Assembly (NCBI GenBank): GCA_017537175.1
Contig: JAFYLH010000011.1
Coordinates: 323-64,322, forward strand
Direction of reading: 5' to 3'
Length of the DNA stretch: 64,000 bases
Origin: Clostridia bacterium
GTDB lineage: Bacteria; Bacillota; Clostridia; Oscillospirales; CAG-272
Part shown: positions 49,225 through 64,000 of the stretch, piece by piece
Numbering within the stretch: position 1 is the stretch's first letter
Layout: every line of letters starts with the position of its first letter
Position numbers and translations under genes: made by a program
Notes under the pieces: generated by a model
What the model was told of the DNA's origin: nothing
Database searches by the model: none
What the model saw: only the letters and a program-made list of their open reading frames with translations

Positions 49225-49739
49225 TGTCCTATAGACTGATCCGTTCTAAAAGAAAGAGTATTTCAATTGAGATATCACCCGAGCTTGAGGTCATTGTCAG
49301 AGCACCTTTGTATATGAAGCAAAGGGATATCGACAAATTTGTTTATGACCACAGAGAGTGGATCATAAAGCACACAGAGCTCAGAAAGCAGAGATTGGCA
49401 AACAGACCCAAAGAGCCTACATTACAAGAGATAGCCGACCTTAAACTCATGGCAAAGGAAATATTGCCACTTAAGGTCGATTATTTTTCGGATATAATGG
49501 GTGTAGATGTTAAATCTGTAAAGATAACATCTGCAAAGAAGAGGTTGGGCAGCTGTTCTGCTGATAACGGTATTTGCTTTTCCTACAGGGTAATGATGTA
49601 TGATAATGACATAATCGATTATGTGGTCATACATGAGCTCGCTCACATAATTGAGCATAACCATTCTAAAAGATTTTACGATACTGTCAGAAAATACTGT
49701 CCCGATTATAAGGACAGGGAAAGGAGGATAAAGTGGTAA
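49224..49739 (+). CDS. YgjP-like metallopeptidase (DUF45 / M48-WLM-like)
   Basis: HELAHIIEHNHSKRFY HExxH motif at the position typical of DUF45 proteins. Confidence 0.8.
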   Translation: MSYRLIRSKRKSISIEISPELEVIVRAPLYMKQRDIDKFVYDHREWIIKHTELRKQRLANRPKEPTLQEIADLKLMAKEILPLKVDYFSDIMGVDVKSVKITSAKKRLGSCSADNGICFSYRVMMYDNDIIDYVVIHELAHIIEHNHSKRFYDTVRKYCPDYKDRERRIKW

Positions 49740-52021
49740 GCTTTGATAAGATCCCGTCATATATTACCGAGGTTTTTACCGATAAAGGAATAGATAACAT
49801 ATACCTTATGGCATATTGCGATATGGATAATGAGCACATATACTGTGATACCTACATTGCTCTTACCAAGGATATGCTCTATGTGACAAGCGGAACGGTT
49901 ATCCTTGAGCCAAAGGATAAGGGCAAGGGACTTGATTCCTTCTGGAAGGAAAAATCATTTGCAGGCTACAGTATAGATAGCATAGAGTCCCTGAAAGTAG
50001 AGGAACTTCTCTCCAGCGCAAGACTTACCGCTAAAACCTCAGACGGAGAGTATATCTTCCTTTCTGCAATGACTAATTTTTGTAAGGGAAACTGCAATCT
50101 CTTTGTAAAATACTTTGGCAAGATCAAAAAAGGTGATATTGTTTCGCCAGATTTTGAGATAGACAGTGAGGATGACCCCAAGAATAATTGTTGTCCAAAA
50201 TGCGGAATGCGTTATCCCGACAAAAACCGCAAGGTTTGTCCCAAATGTATGGAAAAGGGAAAGCTCTTTTCAAGATTTGGCGTATTTCTTTTAAAATACA
50301 AGATGGAAATGCTTATTCTGTTGATTTCGCTTGTGTTTCTTACAGGTACAAGTATTCTTATTCCGTACTTTTCCAACGGCTTTTTCTATGATAAGATCCT
50401 TGACGAAAGCGGCAGTCTTTACGGTCAGATACTGTTAGCTTTGGGCATTATTATTGCTACGAAGCTCTTGTCTGTGTTTGCAGATATGATCAACGGTTAT
50501 ATATCCACAAAGATAGCAACAAAGGTGGTATACGATTTAAAAAATACCATATTCGGTGCTATAGAACGCTTGTCTCTGAGCTTCTTTAACGGAAGACAGA
50601 CCGGCGGTCTTATGACACAGGTGAACGATGACTCCAACACTATCTACGGCTTTTTCTGTGACGGAATTCCGTATTTTCTTATAAATATAGTTCAGGTAGT
50701 GGTCCTCTGTGTTATTCTGTTTATAATGAACCCTCTGTTGGCGTTGCTTTCATTGAGCACTATTCCCGTGTTTTATTTTGTACTTCGCCGTACATATTCA
50801 GTATCCCGTAAGCTTCATACCCATCATTATTCGGGGGTAAGACGCATGAATTCTCAGCTTTCGGATGTGCTTGGCGGTATCCGCGTAGTTAAGGCGTTTG
50901 CCAAGGAAAACGAGGAGAGCCAACGATTCCACAAGAGTAACAGGATCGCCGCCGCAAGTAACCGTAAGCTTGCTCTTTTCAATAACTATGTATATCCGTA
51001 CATCGGAGTGATTCTTTATTTCGGTAATGTGATTGCCCTGGGCGTGGGCGGATATATGGTAATGAGCGACCGTTTTGCCTTTACATACGGTGATCTTATT
51101 ACCTTTACTGCATATATCAATATGATATACAGCCCTATGTATTTCTTCTCTCATATGATAGACTGGACGGCAAGTACATCAAATTCACTTCAAAGACTCT
51201 TTGAGATTTACGATACCGAGCCTGATATCACAGAGAAGGCGGATGCGGTGACTCTTGAAAATATCGAGGGTAGAGTTGAATTCCGTTCGGTGGATTTTGG
51301 ATATTCAAAGACCAAAAAAGTCATAGACAATGTAAGCTTTGAGATTGAAGCACAGCATATTCTCGGTATTGTCGGACATACGGGCGCAGGAAAAAGCACT
51401 ATTGCCAATCTTATTATGCGCCTTTATGATACCGATGAGGGAGGCGTTTATATTGACGGTGTCAATGTTAAGGAGCTCAGCTTTAAATCTCTTTATGAAA
51501 ATATTGCCATAGTTTCTCAGGAAACATACCTGTTTATTGGCTCTATACTTGATAATATCAGATACGCCAGACCCGATGCCTCATATGAGGAGGTCATCTA
51601 TGCCGCAAAATGCGCCGGTGCGCATGATTTTATCATCAAGCTTCCCGACGGATACAATACTATGATAGGCTTTGGCCACAAGGATCTTTCCGGTGGAGAA
51701 AGACAGCGTGTTTCTATTGCAAGAGCTATATTGCGCGATCCAAAGATACTCATTCTTGACGAGGCAACCGCCGCAATGGACACCAAGACCGAAAAGATGA
51801 TCCAGACTGCGCTTTCTTCTCTTACCAAGGGTAAGACCACCATTATGATAGCTCACCGTCTTTCCACTCTTCGCGATGCCCATAAGCTTATAGTAATAGA
51901 AAACGGCAGGGTCGCAGAGCAAGGAACTCACAAGGAGCTTCTTGATATTGAGGACGGAGTATACAATAAGCTTTATACCCTGCAGCTTGATGCATTGAAG
52001 AATGCAGGAATAACGGAGTAA
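49733..52021 (+). CDS. ABC exporter half-transporter (TMD+NBD) with an N-terminal extension of about 185 aa (PH-like region + zinc ribbon)
   Basis: GTG start 6 nt after aaggagg (49721-49727), overlapping the ygjP stop. CCPKCG...CPKC (nt 50189-50248) lies just before TM1, followed by six TM helices. NBD motifs are GHTGAGKST, LSGGERQR and ILILDEAT. Confidence 0.85.
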   Translation: MVSFDKIPSYITEVFTDKGIDNIYLMAYCDMDNEHIYCDTYIALTKDMLYVTSGTVILEPKDKGKGLDSFWKEKSFAGYSIDSIESLKVEELLSSARLTAKTSDGEYIFLSAMTNFCKGNCNLFVKYFGKIKKGDIVSPDFEIDSEDDPKNNCCPKCGMRYPDKNRKVCPKCMEKGKLFSRFGVFLLKYKMEMLILLISLVFLTGTSILIPYFSNGFFYDKILDESGSLYGQILLALGIIIATKLLSVFADMINGYISTKIATKVVYDLKNTIFGAIERLSLSFFNGRQTGGLMTQVNDDSNTIYGFFCDGIPYFLINIVQVVVLCVILFIMNPLLALLSLSTIPVFYFVLRRTYSVSRKLHTHHYSGVRRMNSQLSDVLGGIRVVKAFAKENEESQRFHKSNRIAAASNRKLALFNNYVYPYIGVILYFGNVIALGVGGYMVMSDRFAFTYGDLITFTAYINMIYSPMYFFSHMIDWTASTSNSLQRLFEIYDTEPDITEKADAVTLENIEGRVEFRSVDFGYSKTKKVIDNVSFEIEAQHILGIVGHTGAGKSTIANLIMRLYDTDEGGVYIDGVNVKELSFKSLYENIAIVSQETYLFIGSILDNIRYARPDASYEEVIYAAKCAGAHDFIIKLPDGYNTMIGFGHKDLSGGERQRVSIARAILRDPKILILDEATAAMDTKTEKMIQTALSSLTKGKTTIMIAHRLSTLRDAHKLIVIENGRVAEQGTHKELLDIEDGVYNKLYTLQLDALKNAGITE

Positions 52022-52024
52022 AAT

Positions 52025-52540
52025 ATGTCAAATGAAATTGTAAAGGAAGGCGCGGCAAATATAGTCCGCCTTGATAAGAATAATTCATCCTTTGGTATGA
52101 AGAACGGCTTTCTTTGTGCAAAGAAGGATGATGAAGGCTATGACAGAGTGTTTCTTCACAGAACATTCCCCTTTGATAAGCCTTGGGAATATATTTCTGT
52201 TATAGATCCTGATAATAATGAGATCGGTATTATATACAGTATCTCGGATTATGATGCCAAAACAGAGGAGCTGCTTCGTACAGAGCTCTGCCGTAAATAC
52301 TATGAGCCCCGTGTAAAAAGCATTGTTTCTCTTAAGGAAAGATACGGCTTTTCTTACTGGGTGATAATCACAGAAGAAGGCAGACGGGTTTCTCTTACAA
52401 TGCAGGATACCTTCAGAAACATCATCCGTATCGGTGATGACAAAGCCGTACTGCTTGATGTTGACGGTAACCGCTTTGTGATTGAGTCTATATCAGGCCT
52501 TGATAAAAAAAGCCACAGAAAGATCGAACTGTATATTTGA
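52025..52540 (+). CDS. DUF1854-like protein (171 aa)
   Basis: FLHRTFPFDKPWEYISVID...NEIGII...ELCRKYYEPRVKSI...DVDGNRFVIESISGLDKKS matches my recollection of the DUF1854 family, which is typically encoded next to ABC exporters. This was not verified by search. Confidence 0.55.
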   Translation: MSNEIVKEGAANIVRLDKNNSSFGMKNGFLCAKKDDEGYDRVFLHRTFPFDKPWEYISVIDPDNNEIGIIYSISDYDAKTEELLRTELCRKYYEPRVKSIVSLKERYGFSYWVIITEEGRRVSLTMQDTFRNIIRIGDDKAVLLDVDGNRFVIESISGLDKKSHRKIELYI

Positions 52541-52548
52541 GTTGTAAT

Positions 52549-54693
52549 ATGTCAAATAAAGAATTATTATGTAAGTTTCCCTTTGAGCTTCATCCCCTTA
52601 TACCCGACAGACGTTGTGACGGTTCTGTAGAGTTCAGTTCCGATTCCCTTGATGTCATAATTGATGGAGAGGTCTATATGTCTGTTGATACAGACGATAT
52701 ATCCGAGTTTATGATCGATAACGGTGTGGGATGCATATTTGTATCCTACAGGGCAAAGGATGGAAGCGTTCATCTTGTGTGCAGAAGCGATGTGAAGTAT
52801 TCAAAGGGTATTTCAAAGCAGGTGCGACGCCTTAATCACTATCTTGAGGATGCTGTGATGCCGCCCTTTTATGATAAGGGTGACAAATGTCCCAAGTGCG
52901 GCAGGCCCTACAGACCCGGATCTCATATATGTCTGCATTGCCAGGATAAGAAAAAGCTGCTGTTCAGAACCTTTAAGCTCTTTTCAAGATATAAGCTGTA
53001 TATGTTTATCGCCATAATACTCTTTTTTGCGGTAAGCGGACTATGTCTTGTTATACCTTATCTCAACAGAATAGCTGTCGATAACTATATCAAGAGTGAG
53101 GATCCTGTAAATATCGGTGGTTATGCACTTGTGATCCTGTCAATACTTGCCCTTGAAATTTTCATCAGGAGTATATCAAATATAAGATACCATGTTCTGA
53201 TCGCGGCAAGCAATAAGATGATCGTAGGGCTTAGAAACGAGCTTTTTGATAAGATAGAAAAGCTGTCCCTTGGTAATATTTCAAAGCGAAACACAGGCGA
53301 TCTTATGCGCCGTGTAGGATGGGATACCCATATATTGCAGAACTTTATCATTAACTATCTACCTAATATACTGGAGCAGATAGTTGTGTTTATTGCAGTA
53401 GCGATCTATATGCTCGTATATGATCCCATGCTGTTTGTAATGGTAGTTCTGCCCACCCCCTTTGTTGTTATATCCTTCAGACTGTTCTGGAAATCCATGA
53501 GAAATCTCTTCCATAAAAGATGGCTTGCGGCTTCTAAAACAAACTCAATATTACACGATATCTTTTCGGGTATAAGGGTTGTAAAATCCTTTGGTATGGA
53601 GCATAAGGAGTCAAAGCGCTTTGAGGAGGGAACTGCTGAAGAAAAGCGTATGCAGGAGATAACCGATATCCGCTGGAGCTTTATCATGCCTGTGCTCAGG
53701 TTTTTTATCGGCTTTGGAGAATTTGTGATCCTCTATTATGTAGGAAACCGTATCATCGGAAATACTATGAGTCTTGGCGAAATGGCTCAGTTCTCTTCGT
53801 ATACCGCAATGATATACGGTCCACTGCGTATGATAGCCCAAATCCCCAGAAGATGGATGGAGTTTTCCACCTCCTCTGCAAAGGTCTTTGAGATCTTGGA
53901 CGAGGAAGTTGATGTATCGGATAAGGACAAGGCTGTAGATATCGATATTAAAGGCAGGATAGATATAGACAATGTTTCCTTTGGCTATGACAGCGGTACA
54001 GAGGTGCTTCATAAGATCAATATACATATTGAGCCGGGTGAGTTTATCGGTTTGGTTGGTGCTTCAGGTGTAGGTAAATCGACACTTATCAACCTGATAA
54101 TGCGTATGTATGATGTTGAGAACGGCTCTATTACCGTCGACGGAGTTGATATTCGTGATATATCCCAAGAGTCACTTCGTTCTCAGATAGGCGTGGTTCT
54201 GCAGGAGACCTTCCTGTTTTCGGGTACGGTATATCAGAACATTGCCTATGCTAAGCCGGATGCCACTCGTGATGAGGTCATTGCTGTCTCAAAATTAGCA
54301 GGCTGTCACGACTTTATATGCCGTATGCCGGACGGATATAACACAAGGGTTGGCGAAAGAGGCTCTACACTTTCGGGTGGAGAGAGACAACGCGTTGCTA
54401 TTGCAAGAGCGTTGCTTCACGACCCTAAGATACTTATCCTCGATGAGGCGACTGCCTCTCTTGATACCGAGACCGAAAAGCAGATACAGGATGCTTTAGC
54501 CAAGCTTTCGGCACAGCGGACAACTATCGCCATAGCTCACCGATTGTCCACTCTTCGTAATGCCACAAGGCTTGTTGTGCTCGATAAGGGCAGGGTAGCA
54601 GAGGTAGGCAACCACGATGAGCTGATGGCTAAAGAGGGTATATATTACGGTCTTGTTATGGCACAGCGCGAAATGTCAAATATGGATAACTAA
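52549..54693 (+). CDS. ABC exporter half-transporter (TMD+NBD) with an N-terminal extension of about 145 aa (PH-like region + zinc ribbon)
   Basis: CPKCG...CLHC (nt 52888-52941) lies just before TM1. NBD motifs are GASGVGKST, LSGGERQR and ILILDEAT. The start is ATG 52549 or TTG 52537 (overlapping the upstream stop), with no clear RBS, so translational coupling is likely. Confidence 0.85.
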   Translation: MSNKELLCKFPFELHPLIPDRRCDGSVEFSSDSLDVIIDGEVYMSVDTDDISEFMIDNGVGCIFVSYRAKDGSVHLVCRSDVKYSKGISKQVRRLNHYLEDAVMPPFYDKGDKCPKCGRPYRPGSHICLHCQDKKKLLFRTFKLFSRYKLYMFIAIILFFAVSGLCLVIPYLNRIAVDNYIKSEDPVNIGGYALVILSILALEIFIRSISNIRYHVLIAASNKMIVGLRNELFDKIEKLSLGNISKRNTGDLMRRVGWDTHILQNFIINYLPNILEQIVVFIAVAIYMLVYDPMLFVMVVLPTPFVVISFRLFWKSMRNLFHKRWLAASKTNSILHDIFSGIRVVKSFGMEHKESKRFEEGTAEEKRMQEITDIRWSFIMPVLRFFIGFGEFVILYYVGNRIIGNTMSLGEMAQFSSYTAMIYGPLRMIAQIPRRWMEFSTSSAKVFEILDEEVDVSDKDKAVDIDIKGRIDIDNVSFGYDSGTEVLHKINIHIEPGEFIGLVGASGVGKSTLINLIMRMYDVENGSITVDGVDIRDISQESLRSQIGVVLQETFLFSGTVYQNIAYAKPDATRDEVIAVSKLAGCHDFICRMPDGYNTRVGERGSTLSGGERQRVAIARALLHDPKILILDEATASLDTETEKQIQDALAKLSAQRTTIAIAHRLSTLRNATRLVVLDKGRVAEVGNHDELMAKEGIYYGLVMAQREMSNMDN

Positions 54694-55176: not shown

Positions 55177-56526
55177 TCATATTTGTCTCTTTTTATTCCT
55201 GTATACAAAAAAGAATGCTATCATCTGTATCAAAAAGGTAACAAGCCAGGATACAGTATAAGAGAAGTACAGACATCTTGGTGTATGGAACTGCTCGATT
55301 TGGAATATCGTATATATCCATGTTATTCTTATACCGCAAACACCTAAGACTGATATTATCATAGGCACAAGAGATGCGCCCATTCCTCGCAGAGCTCCTG
55401 TTGATACATCCATTAATCCGCATATGAAGTAGGGAAGACATATCATACTCATACGGATAATGCCGTAGGTGATGGCTTCCTTTGAATCTGTAATATATAT
55501 CGAAAGAAGCTGAGGCGAAAGCGCATATGCCGTTCCTCCAAAGACGATTCCCGTTACAGATACAAGTATGAGGCAGTAGAGCAGTATTTTTGAAACTCTT
55601 TTGAATTTCTTTGCTCCTGCGTTCTGACCTATATAATTTACTGCTGTCTGGTGAAAGGCGTTAAGGGTTACATAAACAAAACCTTCTATATTTCCCGCCG
55701 CGGCATTTCCTGACATTACAACATCGCCAAAGGAATTGACAGATGACTGAATTATAACATTGGAGATAGAGAACAGCGAGCCCTGTATTCCCGCAGGCAG
55801 ACCAATACGCAGTATCTTTATGAGCTGTGCCTTGTATATCCTCATTTTTTTAAGCTCAAGACGGCAGGCATCCTTACGGCGCATAAGAGCAATGACTACA
55901 AGGATAGCAGATATGCCCTGGGATATGGTTGTTGCAAGAGCAACTCCTTCTACATTCATATTACATGCAGTTACAAAGATTACATTCAAAATAACATTGA
56001 TAATGCCGCTGGCTGTCAGGTATATAAGGGGAGATTTGGTATCTCCGGCCGCACGGAGTATGGATGCGCTGAAGTTATATACCATATTAAAGGTTATGCC
56101 TGCAAAATATATCTTCATATACAGAGCTGATAAGGGCAGAACATTATCAGGTGTGTTCATTAAAGAAAGCAAAGGCTCGGCAAGAAGAACACCGACAACA
56201 GTCAGTATTATACCGCTGATAATTGATGCCGGAATGGCTGTGTGTACTGTCTTATGTACCTCTGCATCCTTTTTTGCGCCTATTGCGTGGGCAACACTTA
56301 CACCTGCGCCTACTGACAAACCGATGAATAGGTTTACTATAAGCATCGTGATAGATCCCGTTGCGCCGACAGCGGCTACACTCAGGCTTCCGCGAAAACG
56401 CCCCACTATAACAAGGTCAGCCGCGTTAAAGAGAAGCTGCAATATGCTTGTAAGGATTATTGGAATCGTATAAAGAATTAAATTGTTAAACAGAGGTCCC
56501 TCTGTCATACTCTTGGTTTTAGTCAT
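55177..56526 (-). CDS. MATE family efflux transporter
   Basis: 12-TM protein starting ...MTEGPLFNNLILYTIPIILTSILQLLFNAADLVIVGRF, the typical MATE N-terminus. Start MTKTKS was chosen, though 56568 is also possible. Confidence 0.85.
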   Translation of the reverse strand: MTKTKSMTEGPLFNNLILYTIPIILTSILQLLFNAADLVIVGRFRGSLSVAAVGATGSITMLIVNLFIGLSVGAGVSVAHAIGAKKDAEVHKTVHTAIPASIISGIILTVVGVLLAEPLLSLMNTPDNVLPLSALYMKIYFAGITFNMVYNFSASILRAAGDTKSPLIYLTASGIINVILNVIFVTACNMNVEGVALATTISQGISAILVVIALMRRKDACRLELKKMRIYKAQLIKILRIGLPAGIQGSLFSISNVIIQSSVNSFGDVVMSGNAAAGNIEGFVYVTLNAFHQTAVNYIGQNAGAKKFKRVSKILLYCLILVSVTGIVFGGTAYALSPQLLSIYITDSKEAITYGIIRMSMICLPYFICGLMDVSTGALRGMGASLVPMIISVLGVCGIRITWIYTIFQIEQFHTPRCLYFSYTVSWLVTFLIQMIAFFFVYRNKKRQI

Positions 56527-56744
56527 TTTTATGTACCGAATGCTATTGAAGTGTTTGTATATTTTCAAAGTATATTATATCACTACAGATTAATATTGGC
56601 AAGCATAAAGTTATGAAAAAGTAACGCGGTATATTTACAAATTATACATAATCTATTGCAAAATTAAGGATTATATGTTACCATTATAAGAGAATAGTAT
56701 GCAAACTGCTTATTACTATAATTGAGGAGGTCGTATACCGGTTA

Positions 56745-58337
56745 ATGTGTGACCGGGTCTTTTACGGAATGTACGATATGGAAGACAAAATTACTGATGC
56801 TTTGGAAGAGTCTGACGAGATTGTTGCCGAAGAAGTCGTTTCGGTGATTGAAGAACAAGATGCTGATAATGTTAAACAGTCAGCAGAGTATAAAGAATTT
56901 GAGCAGAAGCTTGCCGATGTCGGTGAGGATTACGACGCTTTGGTAGATTTCTATAATAATATTGATACTCAGCTTGAGCCCGAGCTTTATGAGTGCTGCA
57001 AGGAAGTGGCTAAAACTAAGCTTTGCGAGGTTCAGAGATCTTGTTTGGATGCTGTTATTTCTGATGCAGCCGCTATGGCCTGTCAGGAGATCCGAACCGC
57101 GATAGCTGAGGCGGACAGATACGGCTTTGATGAAAAGATCCTTGCGGACGCAAAGCTTAAGCTTGATAAATTACTGGATATATCTGAGCACAAGGTCCTT
57201 TCTGATTTCTGTTCCAAAATTGATACAATCGGTATACCTGAGATCTTTGAATTCAGGGCTATGCTCGAGAGTGAAGGCTTCAAGCACGAAAATGTATCGC
57301 GTTATACAAGTAAGATAAATGACAGATATTGGACTATTATTTATAAGGAATCCTGCGCTAAGTGTAAACAGAGTGTAGTGCATGAGCTTGTACGGGATGA
57401 AGTCGCGGCGAATGATCTTATCTCCTGCTTTGAAAAATGCGGTGTATCCCCCTACAAGGTTGCCGCTTATACAACCAGAGTTAAAAATGTATTTGAATTA
57501 CGCAAGGAATATGACAATGTAAGGACTCCCATTGTAAATGAGATCCGTGAAAAATCCTTGCAGTTTGTGGGCGGTATCATTGAAAAGGACATTAGCTCCA
57601 GCTCTGTAAGCTGTATTGAACCGGATATCTTTATATGCGATGATGCTGCAATAAGACAGCATTTGGTATCTGATCCGTTCAACTCTCTTTACATTGACGA
57701 AGAAATACCGCTGTTATATATGTACAGATACGGTTACGATGATAACTCGACGCCTGTTTTCAGTATAACAAATGAGGCGATGTATTTCCCTTGTGAGGAT
57801 GAAGAACAGCCTTATATCAGAATACCCTTTGAAAATATCGGTGATATCAGGGCGGCGGTAACCACAGGTGAGGTGTATATTTGCTATGATGATGCATCTG
57901 TGATTATACAAACCGAGCTTCCTTATAAGGTTAGAGTACTCCTTGGTACAGCTATTCGCAAAATAGCTGACTATCTCATAGATTCAAAGAGAAAGAACCA
58001 AACATTGCTTGATTCCCTGAGATATGAATATGACCGTAATCTTGCGCTGCTGTTTAAGAAGTATCCTATACCCAACGATGACATCTATTCCTTTGAAAAG
58101 CCTCAAAGTTTGATCGACCTGCAGACTGCTCTGGAAAGCTCCGAACCCTGGGTATGTAAGTGTGGTAAGGTAAACAAGGGTAATTTCTGCAGTCAGTGCG
58201 GTACTAACAAAGATGAGGGTATAATTGAATGGACATGCGACTGCGGAACTGTTAACAGAGCTAATTTCTGTACATCTTGCGGTGGGCCCAGACCTCAGAA
58301 TGACGAAAATGAAGAAACTGTCGATATAATTGAATAA
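56745..58337 (+). CDS. Hypothetical 530-aa protein: acidic N-terminus, helical middle, PH-like region, two C-terminal zinc ribbons
   Basis: WVCKCGKVNKGNFCSQCG and WTCDCGTVNRANFCTSCG lie at nt 58149-58286. The start is uncertain (ATG 56745 lies 14 nt after gaggagg; ATGs at 56769 and 56778 are also in frame). A terminator follows. Confidence 0.6.
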   Translation: MCDRVFYGMYDMEDKITDALEESDEIVAEEVVSVIEEQDADNVKQSAEYKEFEQKLADVGEDYDALVDFYNNIDTQLEPELYECCKEVAKTKLCEVQRSCLDAVISDAAAMACQEIRTAIAEADRYGFDEKILADAKLKLDKLLDISEHKVLSDFCSKIDTIGIPEIFEFRAMLESEGFKHENVSRYTSKINDRYWTIIYKESCAKCKQSVVHELVRDEVAANDLISCFEKCGVSPYKVAAYTTRVKNVFELRKEYDNVRTPIVNEIREKSLQFVGGIIEKDISSSSVSCIEPDIFICDDAAIRQHLVSDPFNSLYIDEEIPLLYMYRYGYDDNSTPVFSITNEAMYFPCEDEEQPYIRIPFENIGDIRAAVTTGEVYICYDDASVIIQTELPYKVRVLLGTAIRKIADYLIDSKRKNQTLLDSLRYEYDRNLALLFKKYPIPNDDIYSFEKPQSLIDLQTALESSEPWVCKCGKVNKGNFCSQCGTNKDEGIIEWTCDCGTVNRANFCTSCGGPRPQNDENEETVDIIE

Positions 58338-58362
58338 TGTTCAAATAAAACTAATATACCAG

Positions 58363-58401
58363 CACACAGCGTTGCAATATCGGCATACGCTGTGTGTTTT
58401 T
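58363..58401 (+). terminator. Rho-independent terminator of the 530-aa gene
   Basis: cacacagcg / cgctgtgtg 9-bp stem with 16-nt loop, followed by ttttt. Confidence 0.75.
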
Positions 58402-58410
58402 ATTTAGGGT

Positions 58411-58650
58411 ATGTATATACCGCTTGATGTTACTCTTGATGTACCTATAGAGCTTGGTAATGAGTTCCAGGATGCAATGGGTTATGTAGACTGGCGCTTT
58501 AAGGTAGAAGAGCTTACTGTAGAATCTTCCGATCCAAAGCCTCCTCAAACCGGTGATAATATGATTATTTTTATTATCATTATGGCGATAAGTGCTGTTA
58601 CATTTACCATAATTTCAATACCTCTTTTGAAAAAGAAAAAGGCGGAATAA
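58411..58650 (+). pseudogene. Remnant: C-terminal cell-wall sorting signal (LPXTG-type) of a surface protein
   Basis: The 79-aa ORF begins right after an in-frame TAG (58405-58407), with no signal peptide, RBS or promoter. It ends with PPQTGD (58540-58557), a hydrophobic helix and KKKKAE, which is the classic sortase sorting signal. It is bracketed by two terminators. Confidence 0.5.
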
Positions 58651-58653
58651 TAT

Positions 58654-58694
58654 AAAGCCACACAATCCTCCTATGCGAAGGTTGTGTGGCTTTT
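58654..58694 (+). terminator. Rho-independent terminator
   Basis: aaagccacacaa / ttgtgtggcttt 12-bp stem with 16-nt loop, followed by tta. Confidence 0.7.
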
Positions 58695-58764
58695 ATATAT
58701 TATACATATAAGTATATTTATATCGTATTATCATTGAATATGTATAAATGATTGATAATTTATG

Positions 58765-58793
58765 TTGATTTTGCGAACGAAGGGTGATATAAT
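58765..58793 (+). promoter_or_regulatory. Promoter of the Na/Pi cotransporter (and possibly the TIR-MORN gene)
   Basis: TTGATT - 17 nt - TATAAT with TGa extended -10. Confidence 0.6.
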
Positions 58794-58846
58794 GGTTGTA
58801 TGATTTTCGACTCTTTATGATGATATAAATTTTAAGGTTTAGTGTT

Positions 58847-60613
58847 ATGACAATTTTATTAAACATAATTGAATTATTAGGCGGCTTGGGGTTCTTCCTT
58901 TTTGGTATGACACTTTTAGGTGACGGTTTAAAGCGCGTTGCCGGCGGTAAGATGGAAACTATCCTTGGCAAGCTCACATCCAATACCTTTAAAGGCGTAC
59001 TTCTCGGTGCATTTGTTACTGCTGTTATTCAGTCATCATCTGCAACAACCATTATGGTTGTGGGCTTTGTTAACTCCGGTATTATGCAGCTTGTTAATGC
59101 TATCGGAATTATTATGGGTGCCAATATAGGAACAACAGCTACAGGATGGTTGCTGGTGCTGGCCGGCGGAAAGGGCGATGGCTGGCTTTCTTCTGCTACT
59201 ATATTTGCCATAGTTGCTTTTATTGGTATAATACTCTACTTCTTTTGTAAAAAACAAACTCTTAAAAATCTTGGTATGATCCTTCTGGCACTTTCCGTTC
59301 TTATGAGCGGAATGGAAGCAATGAAGGATGCAATGACCTCGGATGAGTTAACAGAAATGTTCAAAAGCTTTATATCTGCGGTAAGCAATCCATTCCTTGC
59401 AATATTTGTTGGCATTCTTGTTACTTCCATTATACAGAGCTGTTCGGCATCAATAGGAATATTACAGGCACTTGCAATTACCGGTATTATAGGCTATGAT
59501 GTTGCGATTCCGATGGTTGTGGGTATGTGTATAGGTGCTTGCATGCCGGTTCTTCTTTCTGCCATAGGCGCAAATGTTAATGGAAAGCGGGCGGCTATTG
59601 TATATCTCTATTTCAATTTGTCCGGTGCTGTGATTTTATTGAGCGGATTTTATCTCATAGATGCTTTTGTTCATTTTGATATTATGCAACAAACTGCTAC
59701 AAGCATGGGTATTGCAATAGTAAATACTGTATTTAAGATTGCAGCTACCGTGCTTTTGGCTCCAATGGCTAAGCTTATAGAGAAGCTTGCTGTTATTACC
59801 ATAAGAGATAATAACAGCGAAGACGATGAATTTGAAGAAAATCTCCTTGATGATCGTTTCTTGAATTATCCGCCCCTTGCTCTCGAGCAAAGCGGAAAAA
59901 CTATGGATCAGATGACCAATGCGGCATTTAAAAATTTCAAAAAAGCGTCCTCTCTGTTATCAGATTTTGATCAGACAAAGTATGATAAGATCATGTCCCG
60001 TGAGTTGCGGGTCGATTCATTCGAGGATTCTCTCGGTTCATATCTAGTCAGATTGAATAAGGCAGCGCTTTCTGAAAAGGAAACACATACAGCCGCCAAG
60101 TATTTGTCCTGTATAACAAATGTTGAGCGTATTTCCGACCATGCAGTAAATCTTGCAGATCTTGCGAAAGAGCTTAACGATAAGAATATTAATTTCTCTT
60201 TTCAGGCAAAAAAGGAGCTTGACATGTGTGTTGAGGCTATATCCGAGATCCTTGATATGACAATCAAGGCTGCCCATGATAATGATGTGGAAACAGCTAA
60301 AAAGGTAGAGCCTCTGGAGGATGTTATAGATATTCTCATTAAAAATGCCAAGACACAGCATATTCAACGAGTGCAGGAAGGTAACTGTACTCTGGAGCTT
60401 GGCTTTGTGTTTAACGAATGTCTGATCAACTTTGAGCGTGTGGCAGACCATTGCTCCAATATAGCGGTATCTGTATTAGAGCTTGCCGATTCTCATGTGC
60501 ACGCACATAGCTATCTACGCGATGTTAAGCTGGATAGCCACGAGAGTTACCATAAGCTCTTTGCTGAGTATGCCGATAAATTTGATATAGTGTTGTCGGA
60601 AATATTAAATTAA
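58847..60613 (+). CDS. Na/Pi cotransporter family protein with C-terminal PhoU-like domain
   Basis: Duplicated QSSSATT / QSCSASIG type NaPi-II repeats (VIQSSSATTIMVVGF, IIQSCSASIGILQAL), followed by PhoU-like helices (ERISDHAVN, ERVADHCSN). Confidence 0.9.
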   Translation: MTILLNIIELLGGLGFFLFGMTLLGDGLKRVAGGKMETILGKLTSNTFKGVLLGAFVTAVIQSSSATTIMVVGFVNSGIMQLVNAIGIIMGANIGTTATGWLLVLAGGKGDGWLSSATIFAIVAFIGIILYFFCKKQTLKNLGMILLALSVLMSGMEAMKDAMTSDELTEMFKSFISAVSNPFLAIFVGILVTSIIQSCSASIGILQALAITGIIGYDVAIPMVVGMCIGACMPVLLSAIGANVNGKRAAIVYLYFNLSGAVILLSGFYLIDAFVHFDIMQQTATSMGIAIVNTVFKIAATVLLAPMAKLIEKLAVITIRDNNSEDDEFEENLLDDRFLNYPPLALEQSGKTMDQMTNAAFKNFKKASSLLSDFDQTKYDKIMSRELRVDSFEDSLGSYLVRLNKAALSEKETHTAAKYLSCITNVERISDHAVNLADLAKELNDKNINFSFQAKKELDMCVEAISEILDMTIKAAHDNDVETAKKVEPLEDVIDILIKNAKTQHIQRVQEGNCTLELGFVFNECLINFERVADHCSNIAVSVLELADSHVHAHSYLRDVKLDSHESYHKLFAEYADKFDIVLSEILN

Positions 60614-60681
60614 GATCAAGTAAGTTTTTTAAAATAGACAAAGTTTAGGATACAATATAGATTATATACAGGAGATAAACA

Positions 60682-62787
60682 ATGGCTATTCTTAGATGTA
60701 AGTCGTGTGGCGGTCCGCTGGATGTAAAAGAAGGGGATAAGATTGTGGAATGTTCATATTGCAATCTGCAGCAAACTATTCCGACGATTGACGATGACTT
60801 TAAATTCCAAATGTTCAATCAGGCTAATGATCTTAGGCGTCAGTTTGATTTTGACGGTGCTAAAGCATTTTTACAGGCAATTATTTCAAGGCATCCGGAG
60901 GAATCGGAAGCTTATTGGCATATCTGTCTGTGCAAATATGGTATTATGTATGTCGAGGATCAACAGACATATACACAGATACCTACCTTTTACAGAATGA
61001 TACCTCAGAGCATATTGTCTGACGAAGATTATCTTAAAGCATGCAAATATGCCGGTGTCGCTTCCTGGAAATATGAGGATGAAGCGAAAAAAATTGAGAA
61101 ATTACAAAAAAAGATTTTTGATTTGTCAAACAGCGAAGATCCGTATGATATATTTATTTGTTATAAAAAGACTGATATAGATACAGGCTTACAAACCGAG
61201 GATAGCAAAATTGCGGCTCAGATCTACATGAAGCTCATAGAAAACGGTTACCGGGTATTTTGGGCAGAGCGTTCTCTTCCTGCCGGTTGTGAGTACGAAC
61301 CGTACATTTATGCGGCACTGTCTACAGCAAAAATTATGTTGGTGTTAGGTAGTGATAAGCGTTATTTTGAAGCTCCTTGGGTTAAAAATGAGTGGATTCG
61401 TTTCCTCGATATGATGAGCAGAGATTCAGGCAAATCCATTATGACCTGTTATAAGAATATTACTGCGGATGACATTCCATCTAATTTAAAGAACCTGCAG
61501 GCCTTGGATATGACCAACATGCTCTTTTCAAGTGATTTGTTGGAGCGAATTCAAAAGAAGATTCCCAAGAAGAAAGAAATGCCGTCTGACGATTTGCTGA
61601 ATGCATTTAAAATCTTCCAGGCAAACAATCCAAACGAATCTATCCAAAATAAAGAAATAGCCTTCAATGACGGTGTGTATTCGGGTGAAGCAATTGCAGG
61701 AAAACCCCATGGATACGGTATATATCATTATTCGAATGGCGTTAGATACGAAGGAAATTGGAGTGTTGGTAAAAGGCATGGACAGGGAACAGCGTTCTTT
61801 AATAACGGCGATACCTGGACTGGTGAATGGAAGGATAACATCCCATATAACGGTAGTGGAGCTTATCATTTTATAAAGGACAATACAACAAAATGTTTTG
61901 GTGGTGTCTTAAAAAACGGTAGACTTTACGGTGAAGGAAAGTCTTATGTTAATGGGCAGGTTTTATATGAAGGATATTTTGAAAACGGAATTTTGAACGG
62001 TCAGGGTACTGCTTATACAAACGGAGTATCCTGTACAGGTGAGTTCCGTCAAGGCAGGCCTTGGAACGCCAAAGGAACATTTTCATTGAATCTAAAAAGA
62101 CCGGCTATATTTAATGGTGAATGGGTCAACGGCCTTCCGCACGGTTTTGGTATAATTCAGTTTAATGATAAAAATGACAGTGTTGAAGGTTATTTCAACA
62201 ATGGTTTGAATGGAGATGTATTTTGGTATTTTTCAGACGGACGGCATTATGAAGGAGAGATCAGTAATTGTGCGTTATCCGGACAAGGAAAAATGTTTTC
62301 AAAAAATGATACTTTGATATACGAAGGAAGCTATGCTAACGGCAATGCTAACGGTTACGGTACTTATTATGTAAACTCTTCCGAAAGATATGAAGGTGAA
62401 TTTCTCAACGGCAAATACAACGGACAGGGTACATATTTTTATCCTCAAGGCACATGGACAGGTGTATGGAAGGACGGCCAGCGCTGGACGGGACAAGGTA
62501 TGATATTTTTCTATGATGATAACGGTAAACAAACAGGCAAGTTTTTTAATGGACATATGCTGAACGGTGTTGCTTCGGGCAAAGGTATTTTAAGGCAAGC
62601 AGACGGAACACGCTTCGACGGTGAATTTTTCAATGACCGTTATTATAATGGTACAGTATATAATGCAAAGAACCAGGTTACAGATACATATGTTAAAGGC
62701 GAGAGTCAACAATTAAAAGCACACAAACGCAATCAGGCTATCGCAGGTACGGCATTTGACATTCTTAAGGGGCTTTCCCGTTTCTGA
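60682..62787 (+). CDS. Zinc-ribbon / TIR-domain / MORN-repeat protein (701 aa)
   Basis: CKSCG...CSYC at aa 6-27. YDIFICYKKTD ... APWVKNEW (aa ~154-285) is a TIR-like block. About 14 YxGxWxxGxxxGxG MORN units span aa ~331-680. caggag RBS lies 7 nt upstream. Confidence 0.85.
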   Translation: MAILRCKSCGGPLDVKEGDKIVECSYCNLQQTIPTIDDDFKFQMFNQANDLRRQFDFDGAKAFLQAIISRHPEESEAYWHICLCKYGIMYVEDQQTYTQIPTFYRMIPQSILSDEDYLKACKYAGVASWKYEDEAKKIEKLQKKIFDLSNSEDPYDIFICYKKTDIDTGLQTEDSKIAAQIYMKLIENGYRVFWAERSLPAGCEYEPYIYAALSTAKIMLVLGSDKRYFEAPWVKNEWIRFLDMMSRDSGKSIMTCYKNITADDIPSNLKNLQALDMTNMLFSSDLLERIQKKIPKKKEMPSDDLLNAFKIFQANNPNESIQNKEIAFNDGVYSGEAIAGKPHGYGIYHYSNGVRYEGNWSVGKRHGQGTAFFNNGDTWTGEWKDNIPYNGSGAYHFIKDNTTKCFGGVLKNGRLYGEGKSYVNGQVLYEGYFENGILNGQGTAYTNGVSCTGEFRQGRPWNAKGTFSLNLKRPAIFNGEWVNGLPHGFGIIQFNDKNDSVEGYFNNGLNGDVFWYFSDGRHYEGEISNCALSGQGKMFSKNDTLIYEGSYANGNANGYGTYYVNSSERYEGEFLNGKYNGQGTYFYPQGTWTGVWKDGQRWTGQGMIFFYDDNGKQTGKFFNGHMLNGVASGKGILRQADGTRFDGEFFNDRYYNGTVYNAKNQVTDTYVKGESQQLKAHKRNQAIAGTAFDILKGLSRF

Positions 62788-62910
62788 TATAAGAGCTGCA
62801 TTATTTCTTTTGCGATTCTTTAGGTTGGACAACTTCAGCTAAAGTCACGCTCACCTCTTGGATGTCGGGAGAATCGTAAGAAATTCCGAAATGTCCTATA
62901 TGACTAATAT

Positions 62911-62948
62911 AAACCACACAGTTGACCGTATGGTGGATTGTGTGGTTT
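62911..62948. terminator. Hairpin terminator 124 nt downstream of the TIR-MORN gene
   Basis: aaaccacaca / tgtgtggttt 10-bp stem with 18-nt loop, followed by ttatttat. Confidence 0.65.
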
Positions 62949-62993
62949 TATTTATAAGCTCTATCGCCTCGCATTACTCGTTGCATCGTCGGC

Positions 62994-63020
62994 GGAAAAC
63001 AGTTCACCGGACTGTTTTCC
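62994..63020. other. Stem-loop in non-coding tract
   Basis: ggaaaacagt / actgttttcc 10-bp stem with 7-nt loop. A second small hairpin, gcaaag cgag ctttgc, lies at 63025-63040. Confidence 0.7.
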
Positions 63021-63084
63021 TTCTGCAAAGCGAGCTTTGCTCCCTCCTTGTTCGATCCCCCTCGCTGCGGATTTATTGATATAC

Positions 63085-63112
63085 AAAAAAGCACCCTTAT
63101 GGGTGCTTTTTT
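63085..63112. terminator. Bidirectional Rho-independent terminator
   Basis: aaaaaagcaccc ttat gggtgctttttt: A-tract, 6-bp GC-rich stem and T-tract, symmetrical on both strands. Confidence 0.85.
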
Positions 63113-63118
63113 GTATAT

Positions 63119-63148
63119 GGTGGAGGCGATGCGTAGATAGCCTCCACC
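63119..63148. other. Stem-loop whose arms read like tRNA acceptor/CCA ends
   Basis: ggtggaggc / gcctccacc 9-bp stem with 12-nt loop. With flanking bases it reads tggtggaggc ... gcctccacca. Confidence 0.6.
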
Positions 63149-63283
63149 AACACAAGTATAAAATGACTATCTTGGCTATCCCGGACTATATGTACGAAAC
63201 GGCGAGGATCGTCATACGTCATTTTAAAAGAAAATAACGGACTTTTTCCTATTCATATTTTATGCTTATATTGTGCATGTATT

Positions 63284-63538
63284 TTATTGTATTGAAACTG
63301 TATGGTGGACAGCCCGCGTGCCCTTTGTTTTTCGATACATCTTTGATGAAGCTCTGCCAAGAGCAACAGACACAGAATGTGTTAAGGTATCGGTAGAGAA
63401 GTAGTCACTATATACTTGAGGGTTCTTACCCGGGATAGTTTTGTTTATGGTATCTATAATGATTTCCTTGTAGTTAAGAAGGTTAATATCTTTGTACTTT
63501 GAATTTGCTAAGCGGCATTTTCTTATACGGTTACTCAT
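63284..63538 (-). CDS. Hypothetical small protein (84 aa)
   Basis: Strong RBS (aaggag, 5 nt before the ATG at 63538), with terminators downstream at 63148-63085; no recognisable motif. Confidence 0.5.
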   Translation of the reverse strand: MSNRIRKCRLANSKYKDINLLNYKEIIIDTINKTIPGKNPQVYSDYFSTDTLTHSVSVALGRASSKMYRKTKGTRAVHHTVSIQ

Positions 63539-63650
63539 AGTTGCTCCTTTCGTTGTTATTAGGGGATATATTATGTCTATTATTTATTTGTTAGTTATTT
63601 TATTGAGTTAACCGTAATATTAGGTTGTTAGTAGATTTTTTGTATATAAA

Positions 63651-63689
63651 AAGGAAACAAGCTGCAGCCTCGCTGCCGCTTGTTTCCTT
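63651..63689. terminator. Orphan 18-bp hairpin in AT-rich spacer
   Basis: aaggaaacaagctgcagc / gctgccgcttgtttcctt (one mismatch) with 3-nt loop, flanked by A-run and T-rich sequence; not downstream of any annotated gene. Confidence 0.55.
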
Positions 63690-63906
63690 ACTGTTATTTA
63701 TTTGTTCGTTTGTAACCGAGAATATAATCTATATTTAATCGAAACAATGGCGGCAGGGAGATTCTCTCTGCCTTCATTATTATATTGCTAAATTGTATAA
63801 GTTTTAAGAAATCATCAAAAACCGTAGAAATTTGAAGGAATTCATGATATAATATAATTTACGAAATTTTACTCATACAGAAATGGATCGGAAAGAAGGT
63901 GGTGTA

Positions 63907-64000
63907 ATGATACGAATTGCCTTATGCGATGATGAGCAAAACATACTCGATGAAGTTTCACAATACATAAATAAGTACGCCGAAAAGAAAAATAACCAAG
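63907..64000 (+). CDS. Response regulator receiver domain (LytTR-type regulator likely), 3'-truncated by the window edge
   Basis: MIRIALCDDEQNILDEV is the typical start of LytR/AlgR-family regulators; gaaggtgg RBS upstream. Confidence 0.7.
   Translation, partial: MIRIALCDDEQNILDEVSQYINKYAEKKNNQ

What the first reader, a model, noticed from the sequence alone, without database searches (positions are those of the whole stretch)
56745..58337. 530-aa protein of unknown function with a PH-like region and twin C-terminal zinc ribbons, possibly sharing a module with the nearby ABC N-termini
Seen in sequence: the N-terminus is acidic (EESDEIVAEEVVSVIEEQDADN) and the middle section is helical. The region nt ~57700-57990 reads ...IPLLYMYRYGYDDNSTPVFSITNEAMYFPCEDEEQPYIRIPFENIGDIRAAVTTGEVYICYDDASVIIQ...LLGTAIRKIADYLID. 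By eye its pattern (x-I-T-N-x-x-M-Y-F strand, then I-P-F-x-N-I-x-x-I) resembles bacterial PH/GRAM-like domains, and also the ...YIALTKDMLYV...YSIDSIESLKV... stretch of ABC-1. Two near-identical ribbons, W-x-C-x-CG-x-V-N-x-x-N-FC-x-x-CG, lie at nt 58149-58286. The gene has its own terminator and sits between a divergent MATE gene and a surface-protein remnant. Its codon style (more GAA/AAA) is intermediate between the core genes and the TIR gene. Inference: this may be a soluble paralogue of the PH-like + Zn-ribbon module found on the transporter 4-7 kb upstream, perhaps an adaptor or regulator. The link is speculative.
Basis: inference. Interest (0 to 1): 0.5.

Follow-up and report, generated by a model that had tools for sequence, protein, structure and literature searches.

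The report
Short PH-like, twin zinc-ribbon protein
This is a real gene for a soluble protein of untested function (helical region, PH-like domain, two small zinc-binding ribbons) that is a short stand-alone relative of rare giant Clostridia proteins, not a detectable relative of the nearby ABC transporter.

Summary

A confident AlphaFold model (pLDDT 80) gives:
- helices to residue 284;
- a seven- to eight-strand sandwich capped by a long helix at 294-439, whose best PDB matches are nearly all PH/PTB/FERM-F3 domains, though with weak E-values;
- two Cys4 knuckles.

The proposed paralogy is not supported:
- Profile-profile probability is 0.7-1.6%, against 94% for a positive control.
- The ribbon types differ.
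- None of eight loci encoding true relatives carries ABC or DUF1854 genes.

The true relatives are rare giant Clostridia proteins of 1,150-1,470 aa, built as Sel1 repeats (detected in most), repeated helical units, one or two PH-like domains and twin ribbons. The target aligns collinearly with their C-terminal part (E 5.6e-53). Several giants sit in a conserved cluster with a WYL regulator, an AAA+ ATPase, small membrane proteins and a ribbon-plus-membrane protein. None of these partners was found in the window.

Function is inferred only: a cytoplasmic adaptor docked through its PH-like domain and ribbons. Interest is modest.

The parts
56724..56730 (+). Shine-Dalgarno-like GAGGAGG, 14 nt upstream of ATG 56745
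   Evidence: Read directly from the sequence. There is no comparable site before Met12, the start used in the public annotation.
56745..58337 (+). Complete ORF, 530 aa, soluble (no hydrophobic segment or signal peptide seen by eye)
   Evidence: Homologues found at E 5.6e-53. AF2 model has mean pLDDT 80.
56745..56876 (+). Acidic, low-confidence N-terminal tail (aa 1-44)
   Evidence: pLDDT 42-56 over aa 1-40. Sequence EESDEIVAEEVVSVIEEQDADN.
56877..57596 (+). All-helical region (aa 45-284): one copy of the ~150-aa helical unit that is repeated in the giant relatives, plus a helical stalk
   Evidence: AF2 helices at pLDDT about 90. This stretch hits two or more separate places in P0004, P0007, P0009, P0022 and P0024. 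No Pfam or PDB sequence match.
57624..58061 (+). PH-like domain (aa 294-439): strands 294-297, 322-328, 339-342, 345-349, 357-361, 365-370, 376-381 and 384-389, capped by helix 394-439
   Evidence: DSSP on the AF2 model. Foldseek hits include ARAP3 PH (TMt 0.54, prob 1.0), ASAP1 PH, CCM2 PTB, talin and moesin F3, and bacterial DUF1696 PH 3dcx. Homologous to the giants' second PH-like module at hhalign 94.4%.
58023..58082 (+). Family motif YEYDRNLALLFKKYPIPNDD (aa 427-446) at the end of the capping helix
   Evidence: Aligned with Y..K...CF..TPIPND in the giants; P443 is invariant.
58149..58202 (+). Zinc ribbon 1, WVCKCGKVNKGNFCSQCG (Cys 471, 473, 482, 485)
   Evidence: W, C and G invariant in 31 sequences. 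147 of the 150 best hits carry the module.
58230..58283 (+). Zinc ribbon 2, WTCDCGTVNRANFCTSCG (Cys 498, 500, 509, 512)
58361..58400 (+). Intrinsic terminator of the gene
   Evidence: dG -24.7 kcal/mol, z -4.96. Sequence shown.

Best explanation
The gene encodes a soluble cytoplasmic protein that is a short, stand-alone relative of the C-terminal part of a rare family of giant proteins (1,150-1,470 aa) from gut and rumen Clostridia.

Giant architecture: N-terminal Sel1 repeats (detected in most), several copies of a ~150-aa helical unit, one or two PH-like domains, a conserved ...PIPND motif, and twin Cys4 zinc ribbons at the very C-terminus. The target keeps one helical unit, the helical stalk, one PH-like domain, the motif, a ~25-residue linker and the twin ribbons. 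The architecture and family assignment are shown by the evidence below.

Mechanism (inferred): it acts as an adaptor or scaffold. The PH-like domain binds a ligand or peptide. The twin ribbons, a widely reused terminal module, dock it to a partner, possibly a ribbon-bearing membrane protein. [quoted passage not shown]

Four of the giants examined lie in a conserved cluster: WYL regulator, AAA+ ATPase, 110-aa membrane protein, a 180-290-aa protein, a Sel1 protein, the giant, and a ribbon-plus-membrane protein. This looks like a regulated, membrane-proximal stress or conflict system. The target would be a minimal docking half of such a protein, working alone or in trans.
For: - Family: phmmer gives E 5.6e-53 to P0002 residues 811-1208, plus P0003, P0004, P0005, P0014 and P0030.
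- Collinear alignment across the helical region, PH-like domain, motif and ribbons.
- End-to-end alignment of aa 9-517 with aa 611-1149 of the L001 giant. That giant also has a single C-terminal PH-like module and a short linker.
- Sel1 repeats at giant N-termini.
- AF2 pLDDT 80 from only 8 sequences; PH-superfold matches.
- The PH-like module is duplicated within the family: hhalign 94.4%, E 8.8e-8.
- Ribbon module: present in 147 of the top 150 hits, at least two units in 101, C-terminal in 77. It is fused to SPFH/Band_7_1, FHA, DUF4428 and DUF6273 proteins.
- Cluster partners are conserved at 45-80% identity across L001, L083, L085 and L086, and partly in L087. The regulator is WYL-type and the ATPase scores 2.9e-37 against IetA.
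Against: - No experiment bears on function.
- Identity to the giants is only 21-29%.
- No cluster partner (WYL, AAA, 110-aa, 289-aa, Sel1 or ribbon-membrane protein) was found in the 64-kb window by tblastn. The target also lacks Sel1 repeats, so a shared role is not assured.
- No ligand of the PH-like domain or partner of the ribbons can be named.
- Foldseek E-values are weak (0.06-0.5). The fold call rests on the consistency of the hits and on topology.
- The AAA ATPase matches generic AAA families almost as well as IetA and falls far below NCBIfam's cut-off (129 against 510 bits), so the defence reading of the cluster is only a lead.
- Only one genome carries this exact gene, so selection cannot be measured.
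Confidence: 0.5

Rival explanations
1. One reading: the protein is a soluble paralogue of the PH-like plus zinc-ribbon module at the N-termini of the two ABC exporters 2-7 kb upstream, and acts as an adaptor or regulator of that ABC/DUF1854 system.
For: - Both regions model as PH-like domains followed by Cys4 ribbons.
- The genes are close on the same strand.
- In one other genome (L052) an ABC/DUF1854/ABC cluster is followed, after one opposite-strand gene, by a twin-ribbon protein.
Against: - hhalign probability is 0.7-1.6% (P 0.03-0.08), against 94.4% for the within-family control. BLASTP finds nothing.
- The ribbon motifs differ in type and number.
- Two opposite-strand genes (DUF2383, MATE) lie between the ABC operon and the target, so it is a separate transcription unit with its own terminator.
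- 0 of 8 loci with body-level homologues contain DUF1854 or the ABC N-terminal domain.
- The L052 protein shares only the ribbons with the target and its flanking gene is not the MATE. One locus in 80 is about the chance expectation.
- The PH superfold is very common in bacteria, so a shared fold class alone is weak evidence.
Confidence: 0.07
2. The ORF is a surviving fragment of a once-giant gene whose N-terminal half and partner genes were lost. It has no function or is on its way to decay.
For: - It corresponds only to the C-terminal ~45% of the giants.
- No cluster partner was found in the window.
- It sits next to another gene remnant, the sortase-signal fragment at 58406-58650.
- It lies in the lower-GC end of the window.
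- It is known from a single genome.
Against: - A 530-codon uninterrupted ORF with a Shine-Dalgarno site and a strong terminator.
- All eight zinc ligands and the family-invariant residues are intact.
- The AF2 model is confident.
- At only 21-29% identity to any giant it has diverged for a long time without acquiring a stop codon.
- It starts near a helical-unit boundary rather than inside a domain.
Confidence: 0.15
3. The twin ribbons bind nucleic acid, as RanBP2-type fingers bind single-stranded RNA and many zinc ribbons bind DNA or RNA. The protein would then be a nucleic-acid-directed regulator, not a membrane or protein adaptor.
For: The motif W-x-C-x-C-x3-N-x4-C-x2-C resembles the RanBP2 finger pattern (the pattern itself is recalled from memory). 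There are weak profile hits to the RBM10 RanBP2 finger (E 0.088) and to ribosomal and RNA-polymerase ribbons.
Against: - All these hits are non-significant, and no zf-RanBP Pfam hit appears.
- The spacings differ from the RanBP2 consensus.
- The best PDB hits are the ribbon of the archaeal FHA regulator ArnA (E 0.02-0.03).
- The protein is strongly acidic at both ends.
- The module's usual fusion partners (SPFH, FHA, membrane proteins) point to protein or membrane contexts.
Confidence: 0.08

Closest known systems
Unnamed family of giant Clostridia proteins (Sel1 repeats, helical repeats, PH-like domains, twin zinc ribbons), e.g. P0002-P0005, P0014, P0030 and L001:6440-9892
   Same: Collinear homology over the helical unit, stalk, PH-like domain...PIPND motif and twin C-terminal ribbons (E down to 5.6e-53).
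   Different: The target has only the C-terminal ~45%. It lacks Sel1 repeats and extra helical units, and (unlike most giants, but like L001) it lacks the second PH-like module. No conserved neighbour (WYL, AAA+, 110-aa membrane protein, Sel1 protein, ribbon-membrane protein) was found in the window. The family itself has no Pfam model, name or known function.
PH-like superfold: eukaryotic PH, PTB and FERM-F3 domains; bacterial PH domains such as DUF1696 (PDB 3dcx) and Pfam bPH_1-6
   Same: A beta sandwich of seven to eight strands capped by a C-terminal helix. Foldseek probability 0.9-1.0 and TM about 0.5 to small PH domains.
   Different: No sequence membership in any Pfam PH, bPH or GRAM family. 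Of 16 family PH segments scanned, the only PH-family match was one bPH_4 hit at E 0.024. The capping helix is unusually long (46 residues) and runs into a family-specific motif.
Bacterial zinc-ribbon modules Pfam DZR (PF12773) and Zn_Ribbon_1 (PF13240); the ribbon of Sulfolobus ArnA (PDB 5a8i); RanBP2-type fingers
   Same: Two CxC...CxxC knuckle pairs with the FCxxCG signature. Sub-threshold DZR hits in 23 of 31 ribbon segments and Zn_Ribbon_1 hits in 16 of 31; ArnA ribbon E 0.02-0.03.
   Different: The target scores 11-12 bits against cut-offs of 25-27. The W-x-C-x-CG..N spacing is tighter than RanBP2. It is a distinct, very uniform tandem unit ending in K/R-P.
SamI/YdjI-type soluble SPFH proteins with a C-terminal zinc finger (B. 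subtilis pspA-samGHI)
   Same: A soluble protein with a flexible linker and C-terminal zinc ribbons. SPFH/Band_7_1 proteins carry the same twin-ribbon module as the target (P0006, P0031, P0038). SamI is recruited to the membrane by partner proteins (bioRxiv 10.64898/2026.02.06.704340).
   Different: The target has no SPFH domain and no pspA- or samGH-like neighbours. Which part of SamI mediates its recruitment is not stated in the passages read, so this is an analogy only.
N-terminal extensions of the DUF1854-associated (cyanophycin-metabolism-type) ABC exporters in the same window
   Same: Predicted PH-like domain followed by a Cys4 ribbon.
   Different: No significant sequence or profile similarity. 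ABC-1 has a single CPxC...CPxC ribbon leading directly into a predicted helix at the start of the transmembrane region. No co-occurrence with the target's relatives.

Membership tests
Giant Sel1/helical/PH-like/twin-ribbon family (unnamed) | Significant collinear sequence homology across the helical unit, PH-like domain, PIPND motif and twin ribbons | tested here: met
   E 5.6e-53 to 1.7e-15 for body matches. Collinear alignment A1. aa 9-517 aligned to L001 giant 611-1149, E 3e-32.
Giant Sel1/helical/PH-like/twin-ribbon family (unnamed) | N-terminal Sel1 repeats and multiple helical units (total length over 1,100 aa) | tested here: not met
   No Sel1 hit in the target; 530 aa with a single helical unit. 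Not every giant scores for Sel1 either: P0002 and P0030 have no hit.
Giant Sel1/helical/PH-like/twin-ribbon family (unnamed) | Conserved gene cluster with WYL regulator, AAA+ ATPase, 110-aa membrane protein, Sel1 protein and ribbon-membrane protein | tested here: not met
   tblastn of all partners against the window found nothing. The rest of the genome was not available.
PH-like superfold | Seven-strand antiparallel sandwich closed by a C-terminal helix | tested here: met
   AF2 DSSP, with pLDDT mostly 80-90 (one block at 68) over 300-440. The PDB top 50 are mostly PH, PTB and FERM-F3 domains. This rests on a prediction, not a solved structure.
Pfam bacterial PH / GRAM families (bPH_1-6, GRAM) | HMM score above the gathering threshold | tested here: not met
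   No hit for the target region. One of 16 family segments hits bPH_4 at E 0.024.
Pfam DZR / Zn_Ribbon_1 | Two pairs of Cys knuckles per ribbon (four zinc ligands) | tested here: met
   CxC...CxxC occurs twice; invariant in 31 aligned homologues.
Pfam DZR / Zn_Ribbon_1 | HMM score above the gathering threshold | tested here: not met
   Target scores 11.3 bits (DZR, cut-off 27.3) and 11.9 bits (Zn_Ribbon_1, cut-off 25). Homologues hit only below threshold.
RanBP2-type zinc finger | W-x-C-x(2,4)-C-x3-N-x6-C-x2-C spacing and an HMM match | tested here: not met
   The spacing here is W-x-C-x1-C-x3-N-x4-C-x2-C. zf-RanBP does not appear in either Pfam scan of the ribbon region (the second lists 25 of its 33 families). 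RBM10 finger E 0.088 only. The consensus pattern is from my own knowledge.
   BLASTP E>0.1. hhalign probability 0.7-1.6%, against a positive control of 94.4%.
   Both AF2 models hit PH domains. A direct superposition of the two models could not be made.
   0 of 8 loci with body-level homologues. 1 of 80 ribbon-only loci (L052), and that one is an unrelated protein. Most contigs are short (4-10 kb), so only close linkage was tested.
SamI/YdjI-like SPFH-ribbon proteins | SPFH/Band_7_1 domain | tested here: not met
   No Band_7 hit in the target.

The most novel reading that the evidence does not exclude
The giants and their conserved neighbours (WYL regulator, AAA+ ATPase, small membrane proteins, Sel1 protein, ribbon-membrane protein) form an undescribed membrane-associated stress or anti-phage system of gut Clostridia. 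In it, PH-like domains sense a signal and the twin ribbons dock the sensor. The 530-aa protein would be a free-standing sensor/docking module that works in trans, or competes as a decoy, with such a system elsewhere in the genome.
Probability: 0.12. Interest if true: 0.6.

Novelty: new variant of a known kind. Interest (0 to 1): 0.3.

Why it matters
- It gives an annotated 'hypothetical protein' a concrete domain map: helical unit, PH-like domain and twin Cys4 ribbons.
- It links the protein to a previously unnamed family of giant Clostridia proteins, which have no Pfam model beyond their Sel1 repeats and ribbons. That family lies in a conserved, WYL-regulated gene cluster.
- It corrects a tempting local inference. 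Two PH-like plus ribbon arrangements within 7 kb are not detectably related.
- The practical gains are modest: a sequence-novel PH-like family; a sharply defined tandem ribbon unit (W-x-C-x-CG-x2-N-x4-C-x2-CG-x-K/R-P) found on hundreds of Firmicutes proteins, including SPFH and FHA proteins; and a candidate gene cluster worth testing for membrane-stress or defence roles.
- Nothing here bears on a long-standing open question.

Tried and rejected
1. The word-index homologue search found only the protein itself, with the single sequence and with the family alignment A1. The second search was in effect wasted. The exhaustive HMMER search was what revealed the family.
2. Pfam, NCBIfam, PADLOC and PDB sequence searches of the target and its parts gave nothing significant.
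3. The genome-collection scan with A1 failed for lack of a conserved stretch. With A2 it returned mainly ribbon-only loci; only L001 encoded a family member.
4. Synteny through the divergent MATE gene, which is seen both here and in L001, was rejected. The two MATE proteins are only 25% identical.
5. L052 was considered as a syntenic ABC/DUF1854/ABC-plus-ribbon locus and rejected. Its ribbon protein shares only the ribbons with the target, and the intervening gene is unrelated to the MATE.
6. A link between the ABC N-terminus and DUF1854 was tested and found absent (hhalign 0.3%).
7. The viral structure library gave no informative match.
8. The faint TerB hit in the helical region of one giant (E 9e-4, below cut-off) was not pursued and is not claimed.
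9. No internal repeat was found in the target by self-BLAST.
10. The public record of the exact protein could not be located as a contig, so the rest of the genome could not be examined.
Full report
**Observation**

The ORF 56745..58337 (+) encodes 530 aa.
- the acidic stretch at aa 21-42;
- the IPLLYMY...KIADYLID stretch at aa 322-413;
- two near-identical ribbons, WVCKCGKVNKGNFCSQCG (aa 469-486) and WTCDCGTVNRANFCTSCG (aa 496-513).

A GAGGAGG site lies 14 nt before ATG 56745. The public annotation of the same protein ('MAG: hypothetical protein IKT46_03615 [Clostridia bacterium]') starts at Met12.

The gene ends in a strong intrinsic terminator at 58361-58400 (dG -24.7 kcal/mol, z -4.96). 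Upstream is a divergent MATE-type gene. Downstream is a start-less C-terminal fragment ending in PPQTGD, a hydrophobic stretch and KKKKAE, which is a sortase-signal remnant.

Composition (GC 0.414, GC3 0.414) matches the neighbouring genes. Only the GAA preference (0.62) leans towards the TIR gene.

**What the protein looks like**

No Pfam, NCBIfam, PADLOC or PDB sequence match reaches significance.

With an 8-sequence family alignment, AlphaFold2 gave a confident model (mean pLDDT 80, pTM 0.54):
- a low-confidence acidic tail (aa 1-44);
- an all-helical region (aa 45-284, pLDDT about 90);
- strands at 294-297, 322-328, 339-342, 345-349, 357-361, 365-370, 376-381 and 384-389;
- a 46-residue helix (394-439);
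- a disordered linker (447-465);
- two small ribbon knuckles (pLDDT about 80).

Foldseek against the PDB gave no hit below E 1e-3. Even so, the top 50 are mostly PH-superfold domains: moesin, talin and merlin FERM-F3, ARAP3 PH (TM 0.54, probability 1.0), ASAP1 PH, CCM2 and X11 PTB, DENND3 PH-like, and the bacterial DUF1696 PH domain 3dcx.

At the sequence level the domain belongs to no Pfam PH, bPH or GRAM family.

**True relatives**

The word-index search saw only the protein itself. The exhaustive HMMER search found 637 proteins at E<=1e-3.

Most share only the ribbons. Six representatives match the body: P0002 (1,472 aa, residues 811-1208, E 5.6e-53), P0003, P0004, P0005, P0014 and P0030. 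Others (P0007, P0009, P0013, P0019, P0022, P0024) match the helical unit and the ribbons.

The alignment is collinear from the helical unit through the PH-like domain, a conserved Y..K...CF..TPIPND motif (YEYDRNLALLFKKYPIPNDD in the target) and the twin ribbons.

Most of these giants carry N-terminal Sel1 repeats. The helical unit occurs two or more times in several of them. Most giants have a ~200-residue insertion between the motif and the ribbons. It holds a second PH-like module (E.PL.LED.TIFGSAKEGFVLTD..IY) that the target lacks.

The two PH-like modules are homologous (hhalign 94.4%, E 8.8e-8, 113 columns). The giant in L001 (Acutalibacteraceae, 1,150 aa) also lacks the second module. 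It aligns with the target end to end (aa 9-517 against 611-1149, E 3e-32).

The target is thus a short, stand-alone version of the C-terminal ~45% of this family, at 21-29% identity.

**Context of the relatives**

Eight loci carrying family members were read: L001 and L081-L088. Four giants (five loci: L001, L083/L084, L085, L086) share this gene order, as far as each contig reaches:
1. WYL regulator
2. AAA+ ATPase
3. 110-aa protein with an N-terminal membrane helix
4. a 180-290-aa protein
5. Sel1 protein
6. the giant
7. a ribbon-plus-membrane protein (MKFCENCGTQLADDATFCEECG...)

Partners are 45-80% identical between loci. L087 keeps the WYL regulator, and L081 has ribbon proteins on both sides.

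The ATPase scores 2.9e-37 against PADLOC IetA and 1.6e-37 against NCBIfam IteA. That is far below the curated cut-off, and it is not much better than the score against generic AAA families. A defence reading is therefore a lead, not a finding.

None of these partners was found in the 64-kb window.

**The ribbons**

- 147 of the 150 best hits carry the unit. 101 have at least two units. In 77 it is at the C-terminus.
- The consensus is W-x-C-x-C-G-x2-N-x-G-K-F-C-x2-C-G-K-x-K/R-P, with W, all Cys and four Gly invariant.
- It is fused to SPFH/Band_7_1, FHA, DUF4428 and DUF6273 proteins.
- Pfam DZR and Zn_Ribbon_1 are hit only below threshold.
- The nearest solved sequences are the ribbon of the archaeal FHA regulator ArnA (E 0.02-0.03) and, more weakly, a RanBP2-type finger.

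[quoted passage not shown] It is brought to the membrane by SamG/SamH (bioRxiv 10.64898/2026.02.06.704340). This is the nearest studied analogue of a soluble body, linker and terminal ribbon, and it is the basis of my docking hypothesis. That hypothesis is inference.

ABC-1 residues 1-190 were modelled with 19 sequences (pLDDT 84.8). The model shows seven strands (25-113), a capping helix (115-133), a low-confidence Cys4 ribbon and a C-terminal helix (170-188) that I read as the first membrane helix. Its PDB matches are GRK2, TBC1D23, BRAG2, neurofibromin and Rtt106 PH domains (E 1e-3 to 1e-2, probability about 1.0). So both proteins have a PH-like domain followed by a ribbon.

That is where the resemblance ends:
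- BLASTP finds nothing.
- hhalign gives 1.6%, 1.4% and 0.7% probability, against the 94% control.
- The ABC ribbon is a single CPxCG...CPxC, not a WxCxCG tandem.
- The target is a separate transcription unit beyond two opposite-strand genes.
- None of the eight family loci has DUF1854 or the ABC N-terminal domain.

Among the 80 ribbon-selected loci, only L052 has an ABC/DUF1854/ABC cluster near a ribbon gene. That gene's product looks SPFH-like by eye and shares only the ribbons with the target, and the gene between is not the MATE. One locus in 80 is about what chance predicts.

**Mechanism and rivals**

My preferred account has confidence about 0.5 as a whole. The architecture and family assignment are far more secure than the mechanism. 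In this account, a cytoplasmic adaptor uses its PH-like domain to bind a ligand or peptide, and uses the twin ribbons to dock to a partner, possibly a ribbon-bearing membrane protein.

Rivals:
- a decaying remnant of a giant gene (0.15): argued against by the intact ORF, intact zinc ligands, expression signals and long divergence without disruption;
- the ABC-module paralogue (0.07);
- a nucleic-acid-binding role for the ribbons (0.08).

**Novelty and verdict**

Every fold type here is known. The PH-like sequence family, the helical unit, the giant architecture and its gene cluster have no Pfam or PADLOC model beyond the Sel1 repeats and zinc ribbons, and two literature searches found no description of them. 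The target is a minimal variant of that architecture. It is a useful annotation and a corrected inference, not a surprise: interest 0.3.

Noticed in passing
L083:9-9357 (also L001:1931-10369, L085, L086, L087): Conserved gene cluster around the giant relatives: WYL regulator, AAA+ ATPase (IetA-like at 2.9e-37 but below curated cut-offs), 110-aa membrane protein, a 180-290-aa protein, Sel1 protein, the giant, and a ribbon-plus-membrane protein. Partners are 45-80% identical between loci. No PADLOC system matches it as a whole.
   Followed up: partly
window 49733-50302 (ABC-1 N-terminus) and 52537-52986 (ABC-2 N-terminus): The N-terminal extension of the DUF1854-associated ABC exporter is predicted with high confidence to be a cytoplasmic PH-like domain followed by a Cys4 ribbon, just before a C-terminal helix read as the first membrane helix. 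Pfam gives no significant hit for the PH-like part. ABC-2 aligns to it at 25% identity but was not modelled. It shows no profile similarity to DUF1854 itself.
   Followed up: partly
window 58406-58650, terminator-like hairpin about 58655-58697: Start-less C-terminal fragment of a surface protein ending in PPQTGD, a hydrophobic helix and KKKKAE (a sortase sorting signal), followed by its own GC-rich hairpin and T-run. It is a gene remnant directly after the target's terminator.
   Followed up: partly
window 60682-62787: 701-aa protein with an N-terminal CxxC...CxxC ribbon, a TIR domain (TIR_2 2e-12) and MORN repeats (1.7e-23). It has weak PADLOC hits to PDC-S66 (2.4e-6) and ThsB (2.8e-3), and the most deviant codon usage of the genes checked in the window.
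   Followed up: no
L052:1085-9299: A Clostridiaceae MAG has ABC / DUF1854 / ABC, then one opposite-strand gene, then a 443-aa protein whose N-terminal part looks SPFH (YdjI/SamI)-like by eye (not Pfam-scanned), with a low-complexity linker and three ribbons. It superficially mirrors the window's layout, but the ribbon proteins are unrelated outside the ribbons.
   Followed up: yes
window 56745 vs 56778: The public annotation starts the protein at Met12 (519 aa). The only Shine-Dalgarno-like site (GAGGAGG, 56724-56730) serves ATG 56745, though with a long 14-nt spacer. No convincing sigma-70-type promoter for the + strand was found in the 176-bp intergenic region.
   Followed up: partly
window 56001-64000: GC falls to 0.38-0.40 in the last 8 kb, against 0.45-0.48 in much of the first 30 kb. 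This stretch holds the target, a gene remnant, a Na/Pi cotransporter-PhoU fusion and the TIR-MORN gene, so it may be a variable region.
   Followed up: no
P0006, P0010, P0018, P0031, P0038, P0081 (hits): The same tandem ribbon unit (W-x-C-x-CG..N..G-K-F-C-x2-CG-K-x-K/R-P) occurs up to four to six times in a row and is appended to SPFH/Band_7_1, FHA, DUF4428 and DUF6273 proteins. Several Acutalibacteraceae MAGs carry three or more such genes. Existing Pfam models detect the unit only below threshold.
   Followed up: partly
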